DNA from: an uncultured delta proteobacterium
GTDB lineage: Bacteria > Desulfobacterota > Binatia > UBA9968
Length of the DNA: 64,000 nt
Assembly (NCBI GenBank): GCA_963847445.1
Contig: CAWJZV010000024.1
Location: forward strand, 32,001 to 96,000
Reading direction: 5' to 3'
Part shown: in pieces, positions 9,937 to 55,460 of the stretch
Layout of the letters: every line of letters begins with the position of its first letter
How positions within the stretch are numbered: the first letter of the stretch is position 1
Notes under the pieces: generated by a model
What the model saw: the letters and a program-made list of their open reading frames with translations, nothing else
Told to the model about the DNA's origin: nothing
Databases searched by the model: none
Position numbers and translations under genes: made by a program

Positions 9937-10072
9937 CCGCAAAGGCGCAAAGGTGACGGGCGAGGCCCGTCATCCCGAGCGAATGCGATGGATCTAAGAA
10001 GATTTCTCCCTACGGTCGAAATGACAGAATTCCGAACTTAGCGTCTTTGCGCCTTTGCGAGATAAATTCCGA
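9937..10072. repeat. CGCAAAG/CTTTGCG-family repeat with internal GTCATCCCGAG...GAAATGAC unit
   Basis: cgcaaaggcgcaaag...gtcatcccgag...ggatctaagaagatttctc...cgaaatgac...ctttgcgcctttgcgaga. Copies at 43531-43670, 48760-48900 and 55272-55460. Confidence 0.78.
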
Positions 10073-12555: not shown

Positions 12556-12750
12556 TCTCGCAAAGGCGCAAAGATGCCAAGAAAATGAATTCGAAGCACG
12601 AAATCCGAAATTCCGAAACAAATTCAAATGATCGAAAATCAGAAAATTCCAAACGGGCCCGACTCGGATTCGAAGTTTTGGATTTTCCGTCTTTGTGAAT
12701 TATTTTGGCCGCGGTTTGTTTCGGATTTAGATATTCGAATTTCGGATTTA
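12556..12750. repeat. CGCAAAG unit plus CGAAAT/ATTTCG palindrome
   Basis: ctcgcaaaggcgcaaag; ttcgaagcacgaaatccgaaattccgaaacaaattcaaa...tttgtttcggatttagatattcgaatttcgga. Confidence 0.72.
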
Positions 12751-40829: not shown

Positions 40830-42104
40830 ATGCGATTAGACCTTGGCTACATTCACATAAAGGACATTCGTTTCGGTGCGGGGACGTCGATTGAAAGCGG
40901 CGTACTGACAATCAACCGCGTGGAAATCATTTCTCTACTCGAACAAGAGCCGCTCTTCGAGCGCGTCGACATCGAACTCGCTCATCCCGGCGAATCCTGC
41001 CGAATCCTGCGCGTGCTCGACGTCCTCGAGCCGCGTTATCGCTTGAACGGTCCCAATTTTCCCGGCGCCCTCGACGGCAACGGTCTGGTCGGCGACGGCG
41101 CGACCCGCGCTTTGAAGAATGTCGCGGTGGTCGAAACCGATCAGACGGCGCCGCGCTCGCGCAACTTGATCGACATGAGCGGACCGGCGGCGGACTATTC
41201 GCCCATCGCCAATACCCACAACGTCGTCCTGCTGCCTTTTCCGAAAAAGGACGTCGATAAAAATGACTATCGTCTTGCCGTCAAGAAAGCCGGTCTCAAA
41301 ACTGCCGCCTATCTCGCCGCGGCGGCGAAGGATTTAAAACCTGACGAAACCCGGGTCTTCGAACTGCCGCCGGTGGCGGCGAATCAAGGGCCGAAGGATC
41401 TGCCGCGCATCGCCTACATCTTTCCGATGCACTCGCATCAGCATCCGACGCAGCAAAAAGAGACGGTCTTTTACGGCAGCAACATCCAGGGCTTCATGCC
41501 CACCGTGGTCCATCCCAATGAGATTCTCGACGGCGCGCTGATGTTTTCCTACTCGGCGTTTACCTGGTTTGCGCAGAATCATCCGGTGATCCTGGAGCTC
41601 TACCGCCGCCATGGCAAAGATCTCTGGTTCGCCGGCGTCGTCCTCACCGTCGCGCCCGCCGTGGTGTCTGAAAAGGAACGCAACGCTTTTCTCAATGCCC
41701 GGCTCGCCAAAGAAGTCTTGAACGCCGACGGCATCCTGTCGACGAAAATCGGCGGCGGCGCCGTCGACACCGATTTGATGATGACCTACACCCGCGCCGA
41801 GGAGATGGGCATGAAGGCCGCTCTGATCATCATGGAGCGCTACCCCGACACTGGCATCACTTTCGTGCCGGAGAATGTCAACGCGCTGATCACACCCGGC
41901 CTGACCCGCGACCCGATCACCCTGCCCGCCGTTGACCGCGTTATCGGCGGCGACACGCTGCACCTGGATAACTCGAACCCAGACAATACAAACCCCGGCC
42001 TTGTGCCGCTGCCGGCGAAGCAGGAGATTACCGTCTGGATGGGCGACCTGGTCGGCGCCATCAGTCAAACCGGCGCATCGCGACTGACGACGTATATGAG
42101 TTAA
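40830..42104 (+). CDS. Glycine/sarcosine/betaine reductase component B proprotein-like (GrdE/GrdI/PrdA family)
   Basis: MRLDLGYIHIKDIRFG, AHPGESCRI..VLDVLEPR, IDMSGP, HPNEILDGA, NHPVILELY, LPAVDRVIG; directly upstream of the grdB-like gene. Confidence 0.85.
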   Translation: MRLDLGYIHIKDIRFGAGTSIESGVLTINRVEIISLLEQEPLFERVDIELAHPGESCRILRVLDVLEPRYRLNGPNFPGALDGNGLVGDGATRALKNVAVVETDQTAPRSRNLIDMSGPAADYSPIANTHNVVLLPFPKKDVDKNDYRLAVKKAGLKTAAYLAAAAKDLKPDETRVFELPPVAANQGPKDLPRIAYIFPMHSHQHPTQQKETVFYGSNIQGFMPTVVHPNEILDGALMFSYSAFTWFAQNHPVILELYRRHGKDLWFAGVVLTVAPAVVSEKERNAFLNARLAKEVLNADGILSTKIGGGAVDTDLMMTYTRAEEMGMKAALIIMERYPDTGITFVPENVNALITPGLTRDPITLPAVDRVIGGDTLHLDNSNPDNTNPGLVPLPAKQEITVWMGDLVGAISQTGASRLTTYMS

Positions 42105-42220: not shown

Positions 42221-43510
42221 ATGAGTACCAAGATCCGCGTCGTTCACTACTTGAATCAATTCTTCGCCCAGATCGGCGGCGAGGACAAAGGCGATGTCGG
42301 CCCAACCGTAAAAGCCGGGGTGATCGGCGCCGGCCGCGCGCTGCAGCAAGCGCTCGGCGAAGATGCCGAAGTGGTCGCGACGATTTATTGCGGCGACAAT
42401 TATTTCGCCGAGCATCAAAATCAGGTCGTCGCCGAACTGCTTCGGCGCACAGCGGAATTCACAGCCGATCTATTGATCGCCGGCCCGGCCTTCGAGAGCG
42501 GCCGCTACGGCGTGGCCTGCGGCGCTATTTGCCAAGCGGCGCAGCAAAAACTCGGTATCGCCAGCGTTGCCGGCATGGATGAAGACAACGTCGGCGCCGG
42601 CTTGTATCGCAAAAATATTTACATCGTCAACTCAGGCGCATCCATCGCGCGCATGGTGCCGACGCTGCAACGCATGGCAGCTTTGGGATTGAAACTGGCG
42701 CGCCGCGAAGCGATCGGCAAACCGGCGGACGAAGGCTACCTGTCACGCGGCATCAAGCGCAACGAATTCGCCGCCAAGCCGCCCGCCGAGCGCGCCGTCG
42801 ATATGTTGCTCGCCAAACTGGCCGGCAAAGAATTTCACTCCGAAATCGCCACGCCAAAATTCGCCGGTGGCAAACCGGCCGCGCCGCTGGGCGATTTGAA
42901 ATCAGCGGTGATCGCACTGGTCACCGACGGCGGGCTAGTGCTGGAAGGGAATCCGGATAAGATCGAGCCGGGACGGCCAACCCGCTTCACGACCATTCCG
43001 ATTCACAACGTCAACACGCTCGCCGCCGACAAGTACGACGCCGTCCATTCGGGCTACGACACCGCCAGCGCCAATCTAGACCCCAACCGACTGGTGCCGC
43101 TCGACACCATGCGCGAACTCGCCCGCGAGGGCGTCATCGGCAGCGTCCATGAATTCATTCACTCCACCGGCGGCGCCCACGCCGCGGTGGAGAACGCCGT
43201 GCAAATCGGCCGGCAGATCGCCGACCAGCTGAAAGCCGCCGGCGTCACCGGCGTGATCCTCACCTCCACTTGAGGCTCCAGCACTCGCTGCGGCGCAGCG
43301 ATCAGCAAGGAAATCGAAAAGCTGGAAATCCCGGTGACGCAGATCTGCACGATGATCCCGGTGGCCAAAGAAGTCGGCTCGCTGCGCGCCATCGCCGCCG
43401 GCGGCATCGTCAGCCCGACCGGCAATCCGGAACTATCGCCGGAAAAAGAAAAACAGTTCAGGCGGGACCTGGTGCTGCGCGCACTGGAGACACTGCAGCA
43501 AGAAGTGTGA
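42221..43510 (+). CDS. grdB: GrdB-family reductase selenoprotein B, 429 aa, Sec at codon 351
   Basis: RVVHYLNQFFAQIGGEDK, CGDNYF, AGPAF..GRYG.ACG, IALVTDGG, DPNRLVPLD. In-frame TGA at 43271-43273 in ILTST-U-GSSTRCGAAISKEIEKLEIPV...PTGNP...RALETLQQEV*. Confidence 0.92.
43285..43301 (+). promoter_or_regulatory. Putative bacterial SECIS element
   Basis: Perfect 7-bp stem TCGCTGC-[GGC]-GCAGCGA. The loop starts 18 nt after the UGA and begins with G. Confidence 0.7.
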
Positions 43511-43530
43511 TTAATCGTTGGGAGTATTTC

Positions 43531-43670
43531 TCGCAAAGGCGCCAAGACGCAAAGTTAAGTAAAGACATGTCATTGCGACCGAGGGGAGTAATCTCGCCCG
43601 AATCCGACAGGTCTCCTCCGGACTGACGGTCTTCGCCCGTCACTTTGCGCCTTAGCGCCTTTGCGAGATC
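43531..43670. repeat. CGCAAAG/CTTTGCG-family repeat
   Basis: tcgcaaaggcgccaagacgcaaag...gtcattgcgacc...ctttgcgccttagcgcctttgcgaga. Confidence 0.72.
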
Positions 43671-43711
43671 AATGTTCTCTCAGAATTCGACCATCGAACG
43701 TTGGAGTCACG

Positions 43712-44714
43712 ATGAACCTACCAACCCTGCTGCTCGTCATCGCGCTTAGTCTTAGCAGTCTACACTTCGCGCCTTCTTGCCGCCACCGTAGAAGACGATC
43801 ACATCGCCGGCGCCAAGAAAGAAGGCGCTCTCGTCCTCTATCTTTCCACCAATCTCGCCGATGCCAACGGTTTGGTCCAGCTCTACAAATCCAAGTATCC
43901 CTTCGTCAAGGTCGACATGTTCCGCGCCGACAACGAAAAACTGTTGAATCGCATCTTGACCGAATCGGCGGCCAACAAGTTCAACGGCGACGCGATTATG
44001 ATCAGCAGTTTCGAAGTCCGCGTGTTGTTGCAGAAAAAGCTCCTGCAACGCTACGTCTCGCCCCACGCCAAGTATTATCCAGAAGGATTCACCGACAAAG
44101 AAGGCTATTGGACCAGTGTCTACTCGATTCCCCGGGTTATCGCTTACAACACCAATCTCGCCAAGCCCGATGTCGCGCCGAAGAGTTGGGAAGACATCCT
44201 CCATCCGCGTTGGAGAGGCGGTTTTGGCCTGTCCGATAGCGCCACCCTCTGGTACACCGGCTTCATGAAATATCTCGGCGAAGAGAAAGGCCGCGACTTC
44301 ATGCGCAAGCTCGCCGCCCAGAAGCCGGCATTTCGCGACGGCGAAAGCATCGTCATGCAACTGCTCGCCGCCGGCGAGTTTCCTCTCGGCATGGTTTACT
44401 CGCACCAAGTGGCAACTCTGAAGCGGCGCGGCGCGCCAGTGGACTGGGTGCGCACCGCACAGCCCATCGTCACCGGCCTAAAACCTCTGGGCCTCAGTGC
44501 CAAGACGCAACATCCCAACGCGGCAAAATTATTCATCGACCTCACCCTCTCGAAGGAAGGCCAGGAGCTGATCAAGAGCTTCAACCGCATTCCCGACCGC
44601 GGCGACGTTACCTCCGAGCTAAAGGAAGGCCTCAAACTCTACCCTGCCGACCCGCGCTGGGGCGACAGCTATGCGAAACATGTGGAGGAATTTCGCGAGA
44701 TATTTTTCAAGTAA
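43712..44714 (+). CDS. Extracellular solute-binding protein (Fe3+/polyamine/thiamine-type), frameshift near 43770
   Basis: AKKEGALVLY, IAYNTNL, PKSWEDILHPRWRG, LLAAGEF, GAPVDW, HPNAAKLFID. Confidence 0.85.
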
Positions 44715-48742: not shown

Positions 48743-48759
48743 ACACGAATATAATTTTC

Positions 48760-48900
48760 TCGCAAAGGCGCAAAGACGCCAAGGCGACGGGCGATGCCCG
48801 TCATCCCGAGGGAACACGAGGGATCTAAGAAAGATTTCTCCCAGGGGTCGAAATGACAACAATTCCGAACTTAGCGCCTTTGCGAGAGACATTCCGAATT
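48760..48900. repeat. CGCAAAG/CTTTGCG-family repeat
   Basis: Closely matches 9937-10072 (gtcatcccgag...ggatctaagaaagatttctc...gtcgaaatgac...attccgaacttagcg). Confidence 0.8.
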
Positions 48901-50166: not shown

Positions 50167-51612
50167 TCACGCCCAATACGTCGTCCGATCGATGGGGATA
50201 TGCTGCAAGACTTCTCCCGGCACGAAGTCTTCCAGCTTGATTCGCGCCATCGCTTCGTCGGGGCATTTCGACACCGGCGAGAACGGCCGGTCGAGCGGCT
50301 TGGTGGCGTCGACGATCATGCAGGAAGTCTTGATCTCGTCGTCGAGCGACGGATCGAGCATGTTGCCGCGGAAGATCGGCGGCGTGATCGAGATTTGCAG
50401 GTGCGGTTGCACGCGGGTCGCGATCGCCCACAAGACATCGGTCGGATTGAAAACGTCAATATCGTCGTCGAAGACGAAAACATTTTTCGCGTGATCGAAG
50501 GTCAGCGCCGCCGCCGCGGCCCGGCCCGGATCGCCTTCGGACATTTTTTTCATGGCAATGAAAATATTGTAGTTCGCCTGCCGGCCGAGCTTGCACACCG
50601 CCGTGACGCCCGGCACCGCCTCGCGGCAGCGCCGCAAATACGCGCCCTCGCGCGGCAGATCCATCCACGGCTTGTCGCCTTCCGGCGTGATGACCGACTG
50701 GTACATGGCGCCCTTGCGATAATTAATCGCCCGCACTTCGTACTCGACACAACGGACATAGCGCTGCGGGCCGAGATAACCGGGCGCTTCGCCGAACGGC
50801 CCTTCGACGACCCGCTTGCCGGGAATCAACGCGCCTTCGATGACGATCTCGGCATCGGCGGGAATCAGCAAGTCGTCGCCCCAGGTCTCCGATGGCGTCA
50901 GCCGCAGCGGCTCTTGCAGATAGCCGCCGATGATATCGAACTCGCTGACCTCGAACGGTCCGGTGTAGCAAGCGCCGATGTGATAGGCCGGATGATGGCC
51001 CATCACCGTGGCCACCGGACATTCCATATTCTGCTCTTCGTAGTCGCGGTACATGCGCCAGAGATGGCGCGGCGAGGCGTACAGCGCGGTGCGGTTCGGT
51101 GACTTGATCTCCATGCGGTGGTACGAGCAGTTGTAAATACCGCTCTTGCGGTCTTTGGTGATGGTCGACAGCGTGCTATAGGGACCGCCGTCCATCTCGT
51201 AGTGGCGCATGAACGGCAACTGAAACAGATCGACATCGGCGCCGCGCTTGATGTTCTGCTTCACCGGCGCGTCTTTCTTGTCGATGACGATCGGCGGAAT
51301 CGGCTTGGCTTCCCGCGCCAGGCAGGCCTCAGCCATCTCACTGCGCGTCAGGCTGCGCGGCATGCCGAGAGCGATCTGGGTCTTTCGCTGCGAAATCTCG
51401 CAATTGAGCACAAGCGGGAAGTCACTCACCTGGCCGTGCAAATTGAGCGGCTTGTCGAAGATCGCGATGGGAAACTTTTTCTGCGCGCCGAGGTGCTTGA
51501 TGATCGCCGTCGCGTCATAATGCGCCGGATCGATGGTCTTGCCGATGTGAACGACTTCGTTAGGAATCTCGCGGCGGCACTCTTCGAGAAACGTGCTCAA
51601 GCTCTTCGGCAT
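50167..51612 (-). CDS. UbiD-family (prFMN-dependent) decarboxylase
   Basis: APVKQ, DGGPY, YNCSYHRM, AEIVIEG, EGPFGE..GY, FDDDIDVFN..DVLWAIATR, IVDATKP. Confidence 0.92.
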   Translation of the reverse strand: MPKSLSTFLEECRREIPNEVVHIGKTIDPAHYDATAIIKHLGAQKKFPIAIFDKPLNLHGQVSDFPLVLNCEISQRKTQIALGMPRSLTRSEMAEACLAREAKPIPPIVIDKKDAPVKQNIKRGADVDLFQLPFMRHYEMDGGPYSTLSTITKDRKSGIYNCSYHRMEIKSPNRTALYASPRHLWRMYRDYEEQNMECPVATVMGHHPAYHIGACYTGPFEVSEFDIIGGYLQEPLRLTPSETWGDDLLIPADAEIVIEGALIPGKRVVEGPFGEAPGYLGPQRYVRCVEYEVRAINYRKGAMYQSVITPEGDKPWMDLPREGAYLRRCREAVPGVTAVCKLGRQANYNIFIAMKKMSEGDPGRAAAAALTFDHAKNVFVFDDDIDVFNPTDVLWAIATRVQPHLQISITPPIFRGNMLDPSLDDEIKTSCMIVDATKPLDRPFSPVSKCPDEAMARIKLEDFVPGEVLQHIPIDRTTYWA

Positions 51613-55241: not shown

Positions 55242-55271
55242 ATGGGTTCTACCAAGACTCGGAGATTCCTC

Positions 55272-55460
55272 CCGCAAAGGCGCAAAGACGCCAAGTTCGG
55301 AATCGTTGTCATTTCGACCTCGCAATCGGCGACTCCGGAAGATCTCTCGCTAGATCCCTCGCCTCGCTCGGGATAACGGAGATCCCGTCACCTTTGCGCC
55401 TTCGCGCCTTTGCGGAAATAATCTGAATCTATTTTGCGGACTTTGCGTTCTTTGCGGCTA
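55272..55460. repeat. CGCAAAG/CTTTGCG-family repeat
   Basis: cgcaaaggcgcaaagacgccaagttcggaa...gtcatttcgacc...ctttgcgccttcgcgcctttgcgga. Confidence 0.75.

What the first reader, a model, noticed from the sequence alone, without database searches (positions are those of the whole stretch)
43250..43510. GrdB read-through with a non-canonical U-x-x-S-x-x-C motif
Seen: the TGA at codon 351 is followed in frame by 78 more GrdB-like codons. The motif is STUGSSTRCG. Established: the GrdB consensus is STUGTCTRCG (U-x-x-C-x-x-C), with Sec near residue 350. The Cys at +3 is Ser (AGC) here. Inference: Sec cannot form the usual +3 selenenyl-sulfide, so protection or turnover of the selenol differs.
Basis: partly seen in the sequence, partly recalled or inferred. 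Interest (0 to 1): 0.7.

Follow-up and report, generated by a model that had tools for sequence, protein, structure and literature searches.

The report
Selenoprotein B variant with serine
A soil bacterium's selenium-containing reductase subunit really does carry serine where the textbook enzyme has a cysteine next to its selenocysteine, and this is a fixed trait of a large, unstudied branch of the enzyme family, not a sequencing error.

Summary
Observation confirmed. Gene 42221-43510 (+) has TGA at codon 351, 78 further codons and the motif S-T-U-G-S-S-T-R-C-G, with AGC at 43280-43282. The TGA is a selenocysteine codon. After it, synonymous changes outnumber non-synonymous ones. A hairpin with compensatory changes follows. 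selA, selB, selD and tRNA-Sec are in the genome.

The serine is not an error. All 21 distinct ortholog sequences from Binatia-type assemblies have Ser at +3, 20 as AGC and 1 as AGT. Contigs from four public runs show no variant there. In a quick tree, all 56 proteins with Ser at +3 lie on one side of a branch.

The gene is not glycine reductase GrdB proper. It scores 417 bits against a cut-off of 602. Its GrdE-like partner lacks the Asn-Cys pyruvoyl site. GrdD was not found in 41 related genomes.

A published precedent exists: FarB/FarE of fluoroacetate reductase (PMC10838667). The scan has already noted this cysteine-poor lineage on other DNA, including an ortholog pair (e1-2876041).

New here: the partner's only cysteine, Cys57, is found almost only in clades with Ser at +3.

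The parts
40830..42104 (+). GrdE-family partner gene (424 aa, P0001), the second subunit of the 'protein B' module
   Evidence: Pfam PF09338 321.8 bits over residues 1-420. NCBIfam GrdG 258.8 bits (cut-off 780) and FarE 240.1 bits (cut-off 675), both below cut-off. A GrdE-like gene stands upstream in 50 of the 57 related loci that had a 250-aa or longer ORF just upstream of GrdB, among 80 loci fetched.
40998..41000 (+). TGC, Cys57 of the partner (P-G-E-S-C-R). It is the only cysteine in the 424-aa protein and lies next to the family-invariant Arg58.
   Evidence: Cys at this column in 10/10 window-clade rows with letters, 6/7 U-G-T-S-T-R-C-G rows and 27/27 U-G-T-S-T-R-S-G rows. It is Val or Thr in 12/12 canonical rows with letters, and Val or Lys in 6/6 U-G-T-G-T-R-C-G rows.
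41553..41555 (+). TCG, Ser242 of the partner, aligned with the pyruvoyl-precursor Cys of canonical GrdE (G-N-C-V-S-A-C)
   Evidence: M-F-S-Y-S-A plus a 6-residue deletion in 15/15 rows of the window's group. The column varies widely across the family.
42221..43510 (+). GrdB-family selenoprotein gene (429 codons plus stop)
   Evidence: Eight full-length orthologs of identical length.
43271..43273 (+). TGA read as selenocysteine 351
   Evidence: TGA kept in all orthologs while the terminal stop varies among TGA, TAA and TAG. The column is invariant in alignment A3. In the AlphaFold2 model it sits at the N-terminal cap of helix 352-366, after strand 344-348.
43280..43282 (+). AGC, Ser354 (+3), where canonical GrdB has Cys
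   Evidence: 20 AGC and 1 AGT among 21 distinct sequences. No variant listed in contigs of 4 runs.
43289..43291 (+). TGC, Cys357 (+6), retained. Its first base pairs within the SECIS stem.
43285..43301 (+). SECIS-like hairpin: 7-bp stem 43285-43291 / 43295-43301 with loop GGC, starting 12 nt after the TGA
   Evidence: 95.6% of cells paired, 0/500 shuffles as high, 2 pairs with compensatory change; the best Rfam match is SECIS_4 at 43281-43302, 20.3 bits, below the gathering score of 38.
43346..43348 (+). TGC, Cys376 (Q-I-C-T-M), a third cysteine in the part after Sec. It is also present in canonical GrdB and absent from the U-G-T-S-T-R-S-G clade.

Best explanation
Genes 40830-42104 and 42221-43510 encode the two subunits of a substrate-specific 'protein B' module of a glycine-reductase-type (Grd) selenoenzyme in an uncultured Binatia bacterium. 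Shown: UGA351 is decoded as selenocysteine, and Ser at +3 is a fixed, inherited trait of a large clade. Inferred: the module is of the non-pyruvoyl type, like betaine GrdH/GrdI and fluoroacetate FarB/FarE. In that type the substrate carries its own leaving group on the alpha-carbon and needs no Schiff base. The selenolate of Sec351 attacks that carbon, forms a Se-carboxymethyl-type selenoether, and passes it to the genome's single Sec-containing GrdA, which is encoded beside GrdC on another contig. That hand-over needs no neighbouring thiol in GrdB, so the +3 Cys is dispensable for turnover. Its proposed job, capping the selenol as Se-S when oxidised, is then either dropped, left to Cys357, or taken over by Cys57 of the partner subunit. 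The substrate is unknown.
For: Sec decoding. After the TGA, synonymous codon changes outnumber non-synonymous ones in all 8 orthologs compared, for example 18 to 2, 25 to 9 and 25 to 10. The TGA is kept in all of them while the terminal stop varies. The hairpin has compensatory changes (UGC/GCA against AGC/GCU). selA, selB and a TGA-containing selD are clustered. tRNA-Sec is present.

Fixed Ser. 12/12 orthologs in relatives and 13/13 in named MAG records, which make 21 distinct sequences. Neighbouring codons vary synonymously. Contigs of 4 runs from 4 studies show no variant at 43271-73, 43280-82 or 43289-91.

One clade. All 56 rows with Ser at +3 lie on one side of a branch (SH-aLRT 92). The window's group of 13 rows has support 100.

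Separate subfamily. TIGR01918 is passed, but GrdB scores 417 against 602, GrdF 476 against 800 and GrdH 415 against 775. 10/10 proteins over the GrdB cut-off have UxxCxxC, and all 8 tested proteins without the +3 Cys fall below it.

Partner without Asn-Cys. 15/15 rows of the window's group lack it, while 13/13 canonical partners have it. Only 10 of 150 family representatives have Cys at that column.

Modular layout. The genome holds about 6 GrdB-like loci and 11 GrdE-family matches, several of them pieces of one gene, but only one GrdA, next to GrdC. A closed relative has the operon grdC-grdA-grdE'-grdB'.

Published precedent. [quoted passage not shown]
Against: There is no biochemical evidence for this clade, and no substrate clue from the neighbours. 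These are solute-binding proteins, an amidohydrolase and a UbiD-like gene, and only one downstream binding-protein gene recurs, in 5 of 11 loci. GrdA and GrdC lie on another contig of a MAG with 6.9% contamination, and GrdC is split across two frames there. GrdD, which makes acetyl phosphate in the textbook enzyme (recalled), was not found over cut-off in 0 of 41 genomes, so the end of the pathway is unknown. Ser242 of the partner aligns with the pyruvoyl-precursor Cys, so a serine-derived pyruvoyl group is not excluded. The sample of 80 loci was chosen by likeness to Binatia proteins and the tree is a quick one, so 'one origin' is provisional. The single-sequence fold of the region is no better than shuffles (z = -0.41).
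Confidence: 0.6

Rival explanations
1. The resolving or protecting thiol has moved to the partner subunit. Cys57 of the GrdE-like protein lies at the shared active site and forms an inter-subunit Se-S bond with Sec351, replacing the lost +3 Cys.
For: Cys57 is the only Cys in the 424-aa partner and is adjacent to the family-invariant Arg58. It is present in 10/10, 6/7 and 27/27 partner rows of the three clades with Ser at +3. It is absent from 12/12 canonical and 6/6 Gly(+3) partner rows with letters. The same split holds among the genome's own paralogs: Cys for C17 and C25, Lys for C42 and C32, Val for C4. Among 150 family representatives, 24 have Cys57 and none of them has the Asn-Cys site.
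Against: All proteins with Ser at +3 form one clade, so the association may reflect a single evolutionary event. One Rokuibacteriota partner (L074) has Val there. No complex model or distance could be obtained. The representatives carry no genomic context, so their GrdB motifs are unknown.
Confidence: 0.2
2. Cys357 (+6) alone takes the protective role, forming a U-x5-C selenenyl-sulfide, so the enzyme behaves like canonical GrdB with a longer loop.
For: TGC at +6 is kept in 21/21 distinct orthologs. The Rokuibacteriota-type clade also keeps Cys at +6.
Against: In the model Sec351 caps helix 352-366 and residue 357 lies in the second turn. A Se-S bond would therefore need local unwinding, which is an inference because no coordinates were available. 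The sister clade (34 of 80 loci, 17) has Ser at +6 as well and still keeps Sec. The +6 codon is also constrained by SECIS pairing.
Confidence: 0.2
3. It is a true glycine (or sarcosine) reductase B in which the partner makes its pyruvoyl group from Ser242, and the Ser at +3 is a neutral replacement.
For: Ser242 aligns with the precursor Cys. Most other pyruvoyl enzymes use serine (established knowledge, recalled). GrdF and GrdG are the top-scoring specific models.
Against: All specific models score far below their cut-offs. The site has a 6-residue deletion and Tyr in place of Asn. The aligned column is highly variable among relatives: Tyr in 60 of 150, Ser in 6 of 150.
Confidence: 0.1
4. It is an artefact or a dead gene: a TGC-to-AGC base error, or a gene truncated at the TGA.
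For: The assembly shows frame breaks in other genes: the GrdC pieces and the paralogs on C17, C25 and C4.
Against: Ser appears in 21 distinct sequences from independent assemblies and in contigs of 4 runs. There is purifying selection after the TGA, a covarying hairpin and the Sec machinery. The gene has the same length as 8 orthologs.
Confidence: 0.02

Closest known systems
Glycine reductase selenoprotein B, GrdB with proprotein GrdE (Peptoclostridium acidaminophilum, Acetoanaerobium sticklandii; NCBIfam TIGR01917)
   Same: Same fold family (PF07355, TIGR01918). Sec lies at the same place in S-T-U-G, near residue 350. The SECIS hairpin sits on the same codons. It is paired with a GrdE-family gene. 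A Sec-containing GrdA with CxxU and a GrdC are in the genome.
   Different: 417 bits against a cut-off of 602. U-x-x-S-x-x-C instead of U-x-x-C-x-x-C. The partner has Tyr-Ser and a 6-residue deletion instead of Asn-Cys. It is not in an operon with grdA, grdC, grdD or trx. No GrdD in 41 related genomes. The host is a soil and sediment Binatia lineage, not a fermenting clostridium.
Betaine reductase GrdH/GrdI (NF040795)
   Same: The partner subunit lacks the self-cleaving pyruvoyl site (for GrdI this rests on passages of PMC10838667 and on recall). It is a protein B module that feeds a shared GrdA.
   Different: 415 bits against a cut-off of 775. GrdH is reported to keep UxxCxxC (PMC6778437 passage). 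No betaine transporter gene was recognised nearby.
Fluoroacetate reductase FarB/FarE of Cloacibacillus porcorum (PMC10838667; NCBIfam NF053623 for FarE)
   Same: The only case found in print of a GrdB-family selenoprotein without the CxxC, paired with a GrdE-family protein without the processing cysteines, and working with a shared GrdA.
   Different: The FarE model scores 240 against a cut-off of 675. No radical-SAM (FarC) or antiporter (FarA) gene was found among the neighbours scanned. The window protein keeps the +6 Cys. FarB and FarE sequences were not compared directly.
PrdB of D-proline reductase (TIGR04483)
   Same: Distant homolog (78 bits over residues 224-404) with Sec in the equivalent region.
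   Different: 78 bits against a cut-off of 300. It is half the size. In PrdB a cysteine is proposed to cleave the selenoether (PMC3091704 passage), so a neighbouring Cys is catalytic there.

Membership tests
GrdB superfamily / 'various_sel_PB' (PF07355, TIGR01918) | Profile score over the curated cut-off along the full length | tested here: met
   PF07355 422.1 bits (cut-off 22). TIGR01918 462.7 bits (cut-off 65.45), residues 6-429.
GrdB superfamily / 'various_sel_PB' (PF07355, TIGR01918) | In-frame UGA for Sec in the conserved T-x-T-U-G context, with a SECIS hairpin and the Sec machinery | tested here: met
   T348, T350, U351 and G352 are invariant in 42 sequences.
GrdB superfamily / 'various_sel_PB' (PF07355, TIGR01918) | Encoded next to a GrdE-family (PF09338) subunit gene | tested here: met
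Glycine reductase GrdB proper (TIGR01917 equivalog) | Score at or above 602.2 bits | tested here: not met
   417.1 bits.
Glycine reductase GrdB proper (TIGR01917 equivalog) | U-x-x-C-x-x-C motif | tested here: not met
   The gene has U-G-S-S-T-R-C. 10/10 proteins over the cut-off have U-G-T-C-T-R-C.
Glycine reductase GrdB proper (TIGR01917 equivalog) | Partner GrdE with an Asn-Cys self-cleavage site that yields a pyruvoyl group | tested here: not met
   Tyr-Ser plus a deletion in 15/15 rows of the window's group. Asn-Cys in 13/13 canonical partners. Cleavage itself cannot be tested with these tools.
Glycine reductase GrdB proper (TIGR01917 equivalog) | Complete complex with GrdA, GrdC and GrdD | tested here: not met
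   GrdA and GrdC are present on contig C4. GrdD (NF040747) has no match in the own genome (91.8% complete) and 0 of 41 relatives score over its cut-off. GrdA is found in 34/41 and GrdC in 34/41.
Sarcosine reductase GrdF (NF040794) / betaine reductase GrdH (NF040795) | Score at or above 800 / 775 bits | tested here: not met
   475.5 and 415.3 bits.
Fluoroacetate reductase FarB/FarE | Partner scores at or above 675 bits on NF053623, within a farA-farC-farE-farB operon | tested here: not met
   240.1 bits. No radical-SAM or antiporter family among the neighbours scanned.
Fluoroacetate reductase FarB/FarE | Defluorination activity | not testable with these tools
   It needs an enzyme or culture assay.

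The most novel reading that the evidence does not exclude
In a deep clade of Grd-type selenoenzymes (Binatia, Rokuibacteriota, Chloroflexota/SAR202, Nitrospinota and others), the thiol that partners the selenocysteine has moved from the GrdB helix (+3) to the other subunit: Cys57 in the P-G-E-S-C-R motif, the only cysteine of the window's GrdE-like protein. That would give an inter-subunit selenenyl-sulfide switch in a reductase that uses no pyruvoyl cofactor and no GrdD. Such an enzyme would act on substrates other than glycine, in soil and sediment bacteria of lineages not known as fermenters.
Probability: 0.2. Interest if true: 0.65.

Novelty: new variant of a known kind. Interest (0 to 1): 0.42.

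Why it matters
The papers I saw treat UxxCxxC as a required mark of GrdB-type selenoproteins. One genome paper called a copy without it a likely pseudogene (PMC6778437). Here a copy with Ser at +3 is intact, under purifying selection and conserved across many independent assemblies. Sister clades keep selenocysteine with no neighbouring cysteine at all. So motif-based filtering would discard real genes, and the neighbouring cysteines cannot be essential to the family's core chemistry.

Together with the missing pyruvoyl site and the missing GrdD, this points to a large, uncharacterised set of selenium-dependent reductases in soil and sediment bacteria. Gene callers truncate them at the UGA: all 120 listed database homologs cover only 80-81% of the query, most at exactly 350 residues. 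Their substrates are unknown. The partner-subunit Cys57 gives a concrete hypothesis that mutagenesis can test.

Tried and rejected
1. Protein database search. All 120 listed homologs cover only 80-81% of the query, i.e. they end at the UGA (lengths 347-393, most 350). The motif cannot be read from protein records, so I switched to DNA loci.

2. Single-sequence RNA fold of 43265-43345. z = -0.41, no better than shuffles. Support for the hairpin rests on covariation and on a sub-threshold Rfam SECIS_4 match.

3. Solved structures. phmmer against PDB gave 0 hits. Foldseek gave only generic two-lobe alpha/beta matches with TM about 0.2. There is no solved relative.

5. Gene neighbourhood as a substrate clue. 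Only a PhnS-like solute-binding gene recurs downstream, in 5 of 11 loci. Not informative.

6. An apparent GrdE-GrdB fusion in L059 turned out to be a run of N.

7. Ser242 as a pyruvoyl precursor. I weakened this idea because the aligned column is highly variable in 150 representatives.

8. Raw reads. All runs offered were Logan contigs, so a true per-read check of AGC was not possible. RNA-library contigs of run X15 cover 43230-43396, but this does not show transcription.

9. Literature. One search (Binatota + glycine reductase) found 0 papers. One search listed 20 papers, of which only one holds 'glycine reductase'. Searches added only PMC10838667.

Full report
**Observation.** Reading window 42221-43510 (+) with TGA as U gives 429 codons. 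TGA at 43271-43273 is codon 351 and 78 sense codons follow. The motif is L-T-S-T-U-G-S-S-T-R-C-G, with AGC at 43280-43282. Pfam GRDB matches residues 4-350 (422 bits). NCBIfam TIGR01918 matches residues 6-429 (462.7 bits against a cut-off of 65.45), so the part after the TGA is homologous too. Directly upstream, 40830-42104 encodes a GrdE-family protein (PF09338, 321.8 bits).

**Is the TGA selenocysteine?**
- Eight full-length orthologs have exactly the same length. All keep the TGA, while the terminal stop varies among TGA, TAA and TAG.
- In codons 352-429, synonymous changes outnumber non-synonymous ones in every comparison, for example 18 to 2, 25 to 9 and 25 to 10.
- A 7-bp hairpin (43285-43291 with 43295-43301, loop GGC) starts 12 nt after the TGA. 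On 33 sequences (29 distinct), 95.6% of cells pair, 0 of 500 shuffles reach that, and two pairs show compensatory change.
- The +6 codon takes part in this hairpin: UGC (Cys) pairs with GCA, and AGC (Ser) in paralogs pairs with GCU.
- The best Rfam match to the region is SECIS_4, at 20.3 bits, below its gathering score of 38. The single-sequence fold energy is not remarkable (z = -0.41).
- The genome has selA, selB and a TGA-containing selD clustered on one contig, a tRNA-Sec and a TGA-containing GrdA.

**Is the serine real and conserved?**
- In 40 related genomes, 12 orthologous loci (77-96% identical) all read S-T-U-G-S-S-T-R-C-G.
- In named MAG records, 13 of 13 orthologs whose motif region is present do the same; two further contigs end before it.
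- The two sets overlap. Together with the window they give 21 distinct sequences, 20 with AGC and 1 with AGT, while the Gly, Ser and Thr codons around it vary synonymously.
- One of the 21, L018 from G005, comes from an unpublished genome. Without it the count is 20 of 20.
- Contigs of four public runs from four studies cover 43278-43298. They list no other letter at the TGA, the AGC or the TGC; the nearest variants are at 43267 and 43357. These are assembled contigs, not raw reads.
- A base error and a sporadic variant are therefore excluded.

**What the family looks like.** The 80 best loci from a scan of species-representative genomes divide by motif as follows.

| Motif | Loci | Where |
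|---|---|---|
| U-G-S-S-T-R-C-G | 13 | the window's group |
| U-G-T-S-T-R-S-G | 34 | Binatia, Dehalococcoidia/SAR202, Nitrospinota and others |
| U-G-T-S-T-R-C-G | 9 | Rokuibacteriota/Methylomirabilia and others |
| U-G-T-G-T-R-C-G | 7 | Desulfobaccales and others |
| U-G-T-C-T-R-C-G (canonical) | 14 | Bacillota, Syntrophus, Syntrophorhabdus and others |
| U-G-T-C-N-R-C-G | 1 | |
| motif region missing | 2 | |

- Of 21 proteins scanned, the 10 that pass the GrdB equivalog cut-off all have the canonical motif. All 8 without the +3 Cys fall below it, as does the window protein at 417 bits.
- In a quick maximum-likelihood tree of 78 rows, all 56 rows with Ser at +3 lie on one side of a branch (SH-aLRT 92). 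The window's group has support 100, and the double-Ser clade (99) is nested inside. The careful tree search did not finish, and the sample is biased towards relatives of the query.
- The genome's own paralogs carry U-G-T-G-T-R-S-G, U-G-T-S-T-R-S-G and U-G-T-C-S-R-S-G. None is canonical.

**The partner subunit changes too.**
- Canonical partners have G-N-C-V-S-A-C, the Asn-Cys self-cleavage site that yields the pyruvoyl group, in 13 of 13 rows.
- The window's group has M-F-S-Y-S-A with a 6-residue deletion in 15 of 15 rows. No partner of a GrdB with Ser at +3 has Asn-Cys.
- Among the 150 best cluster representatives of the GrdE family (1,995 proteins at E <= 0.001), only 10 have Cys at that column; Tyr is the commonest residue, at 60. 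The profile came from my own sample, so this share is not unbiased.
- Conversely, Cys57 of the partner, its only cysteine and next to the invariant Arg58, is present in 10/10, 6/7 and 27/27 partner rows of the three clades with Ser at +3. It is absent from 12/12 canonical and 6/6 Gly(+3) rows with letters.
- The genome's own paralogs show the same split.
- Because the proteins with Ser at +3 form one clade, this is one evolutionary event as far as the data go.

**The rest of the system.**
- The genome has one GrdA with GrdC beside it. GrdC is split across two frames there, probably an assembly indel.
- It holds about six GrdB-like loci and 11 GrdE-family matches, several of which are pieces of one gene.
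- GrdD has no match in the own genome and none over cut-off in 0 of 41 related genomes. GrdA is found in 34 of 41 and GrdC in 34 of 41.
- A closed relative carries grdC-grdA-grdE'-grdB' as one operon without grdD.

**Structure.** An AlphaFold2 model (mean pLDDT 89.0, 42-row alignment) puts Sec351 at the N-terminal cap of helix 352-366, after strand 344-348. This is the geometry of CxxC-type redox centres. Ser354 then lies in the first helical turn, where a resolving Cys would sit, and Cys357 in the second. No coordinates were available and no solved relative exists.

**Literature** (passages only, through 'find').
- PMC6778437 checks GrdB/F/H genes for UxxCxxC, calls it required 'to protect against accidental oxidation', and judges a copy without it a likely pseudogene.
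[quoted passage not shown] - PMC3091704 gives Sec350 for GrdB and a cysteine-resolved selenoether for PrdB.
- Wagner 1999, Andreesen 2004 and the role of GrdD are recalled, or known to me only through these citations.
- I found no paper on Grd genes in Binatia, or on a U-x-x-S clade. Supplements were not opened.

**Earlier scan notes.** The scan has seen this lineage before. It has seen an ortholog pair in another Binatia genome (e1-2876041), and cysteine-poor, pyruvoyl-less, GrdD-less Grd clusters elsewhere (e1-778443, e1-1246752, e1-1367857, e1-1068891, e1-781305). My own tests agree with them.

**Verdict.** It marks membership of an old, widespread and uncharacterised branch of the selenoprotein B family, not an odd glycine reductase. 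The most likely mechanism is a non-pyruvoyl protein B that hands its selenoether to a shared GrdA, so the +3 cysteine is not needed for turnover. How the selenol is protected is open. The options are nothing, Cys357, or the partner's Cys57.

Noticed in passing
window 43530-43554 (+) and 43643-43667 (-); also 10037-10061, 12557-12581, 48759-48783, 55271-55295, 55392-55416: A REP-like intergenic repeat (consensus CTCGCAAAGGCGCNAAGNCGCAAAG). It has 7 matches with up to 3 mismatches against 0 expected by chance. An inverted pair lies just downstream of the selenoprotein gene. A degenerate copy seems to lie in the 116-nt spacer between the two subunit genes; that copy was judged by eye.
   Followed up: partly
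window 43661-44714 (+): The downstream solute-binding protein gene (SBP_bac_8/PhnS-like) is split between two overlapping frames, 43661-44239 and 43872-44714. GrdC and the GrdB paralogs on contigs C17, C25 and C4 of the same genome are also frame-broken. The pattern looks like single-base indel errors of a long-read assembly.
   Followed up: partly
G000:C42:220744-221790 and G000:C32:4647-5693 (L002, L003): Two nearly identical copies of a GrdE/GrdB-like pair lie on different contigs. Their motif, U-G-T-G-T-R-S-G, has no Cys at +3 or +6. They could be a true duplication, strain heterogeneity, or part of the MAG's 6.9% contamination.
   Followed up: no
41 genomes of the window's order (G000-G040): GrdD (NF040747) scores over its cut-off in 0 of 41 genomes, while GrdA is found in 34 of 41 and GrdC in 34 of 41, always adjacent where both were listed. 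In the own genome PF02504 (the PlsX/GrdD fold family) also has no match.
   Followed up: partly
P0123-P0272 (150 representatives of the GrdE family): Only 10 of 150 cluster representatives have Cys at the pyruvoyl-precursor column, and 7 have the G-N-C motif. By sequence diversity, the biochemically studied type looks like a minority of the family. The profile was built from my own biased sample.
   Followed up: partly
L140 (G025:C1:2279000-2297000): In a closed relative, the grdC-grdA-grdE'-grdB' operon sits beside four other genes: a divergently transcribed gene with weak TsoB/Trx7-type selenoprotein likeness, an ArsS-type radical SAM (seleno)protein gene, a pyridine-nucleotide disulfide oxidoreductase, and a UbiD-family decarboxylase. 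A UbiD-family gene also lies in the window at 50167-51612 (-).
   Followed up: no
G000:C14:194887-195726 (L042): selD itself contains one in-frame TGA (a selenoprotein SelD). It follows selA and selB in one cluster.
   Followed up: no
L086 (Thermodesulfobacteriota MAG): This is a mixed state: GrdB has Gly at +3 (U-G-T-G-T-R-C-G), but its partner keeps the Asn-Cys site. Loss of the +3 Cys and loss of the pyruvoyl site are therefore not strictly coupled.
   Followed up: no
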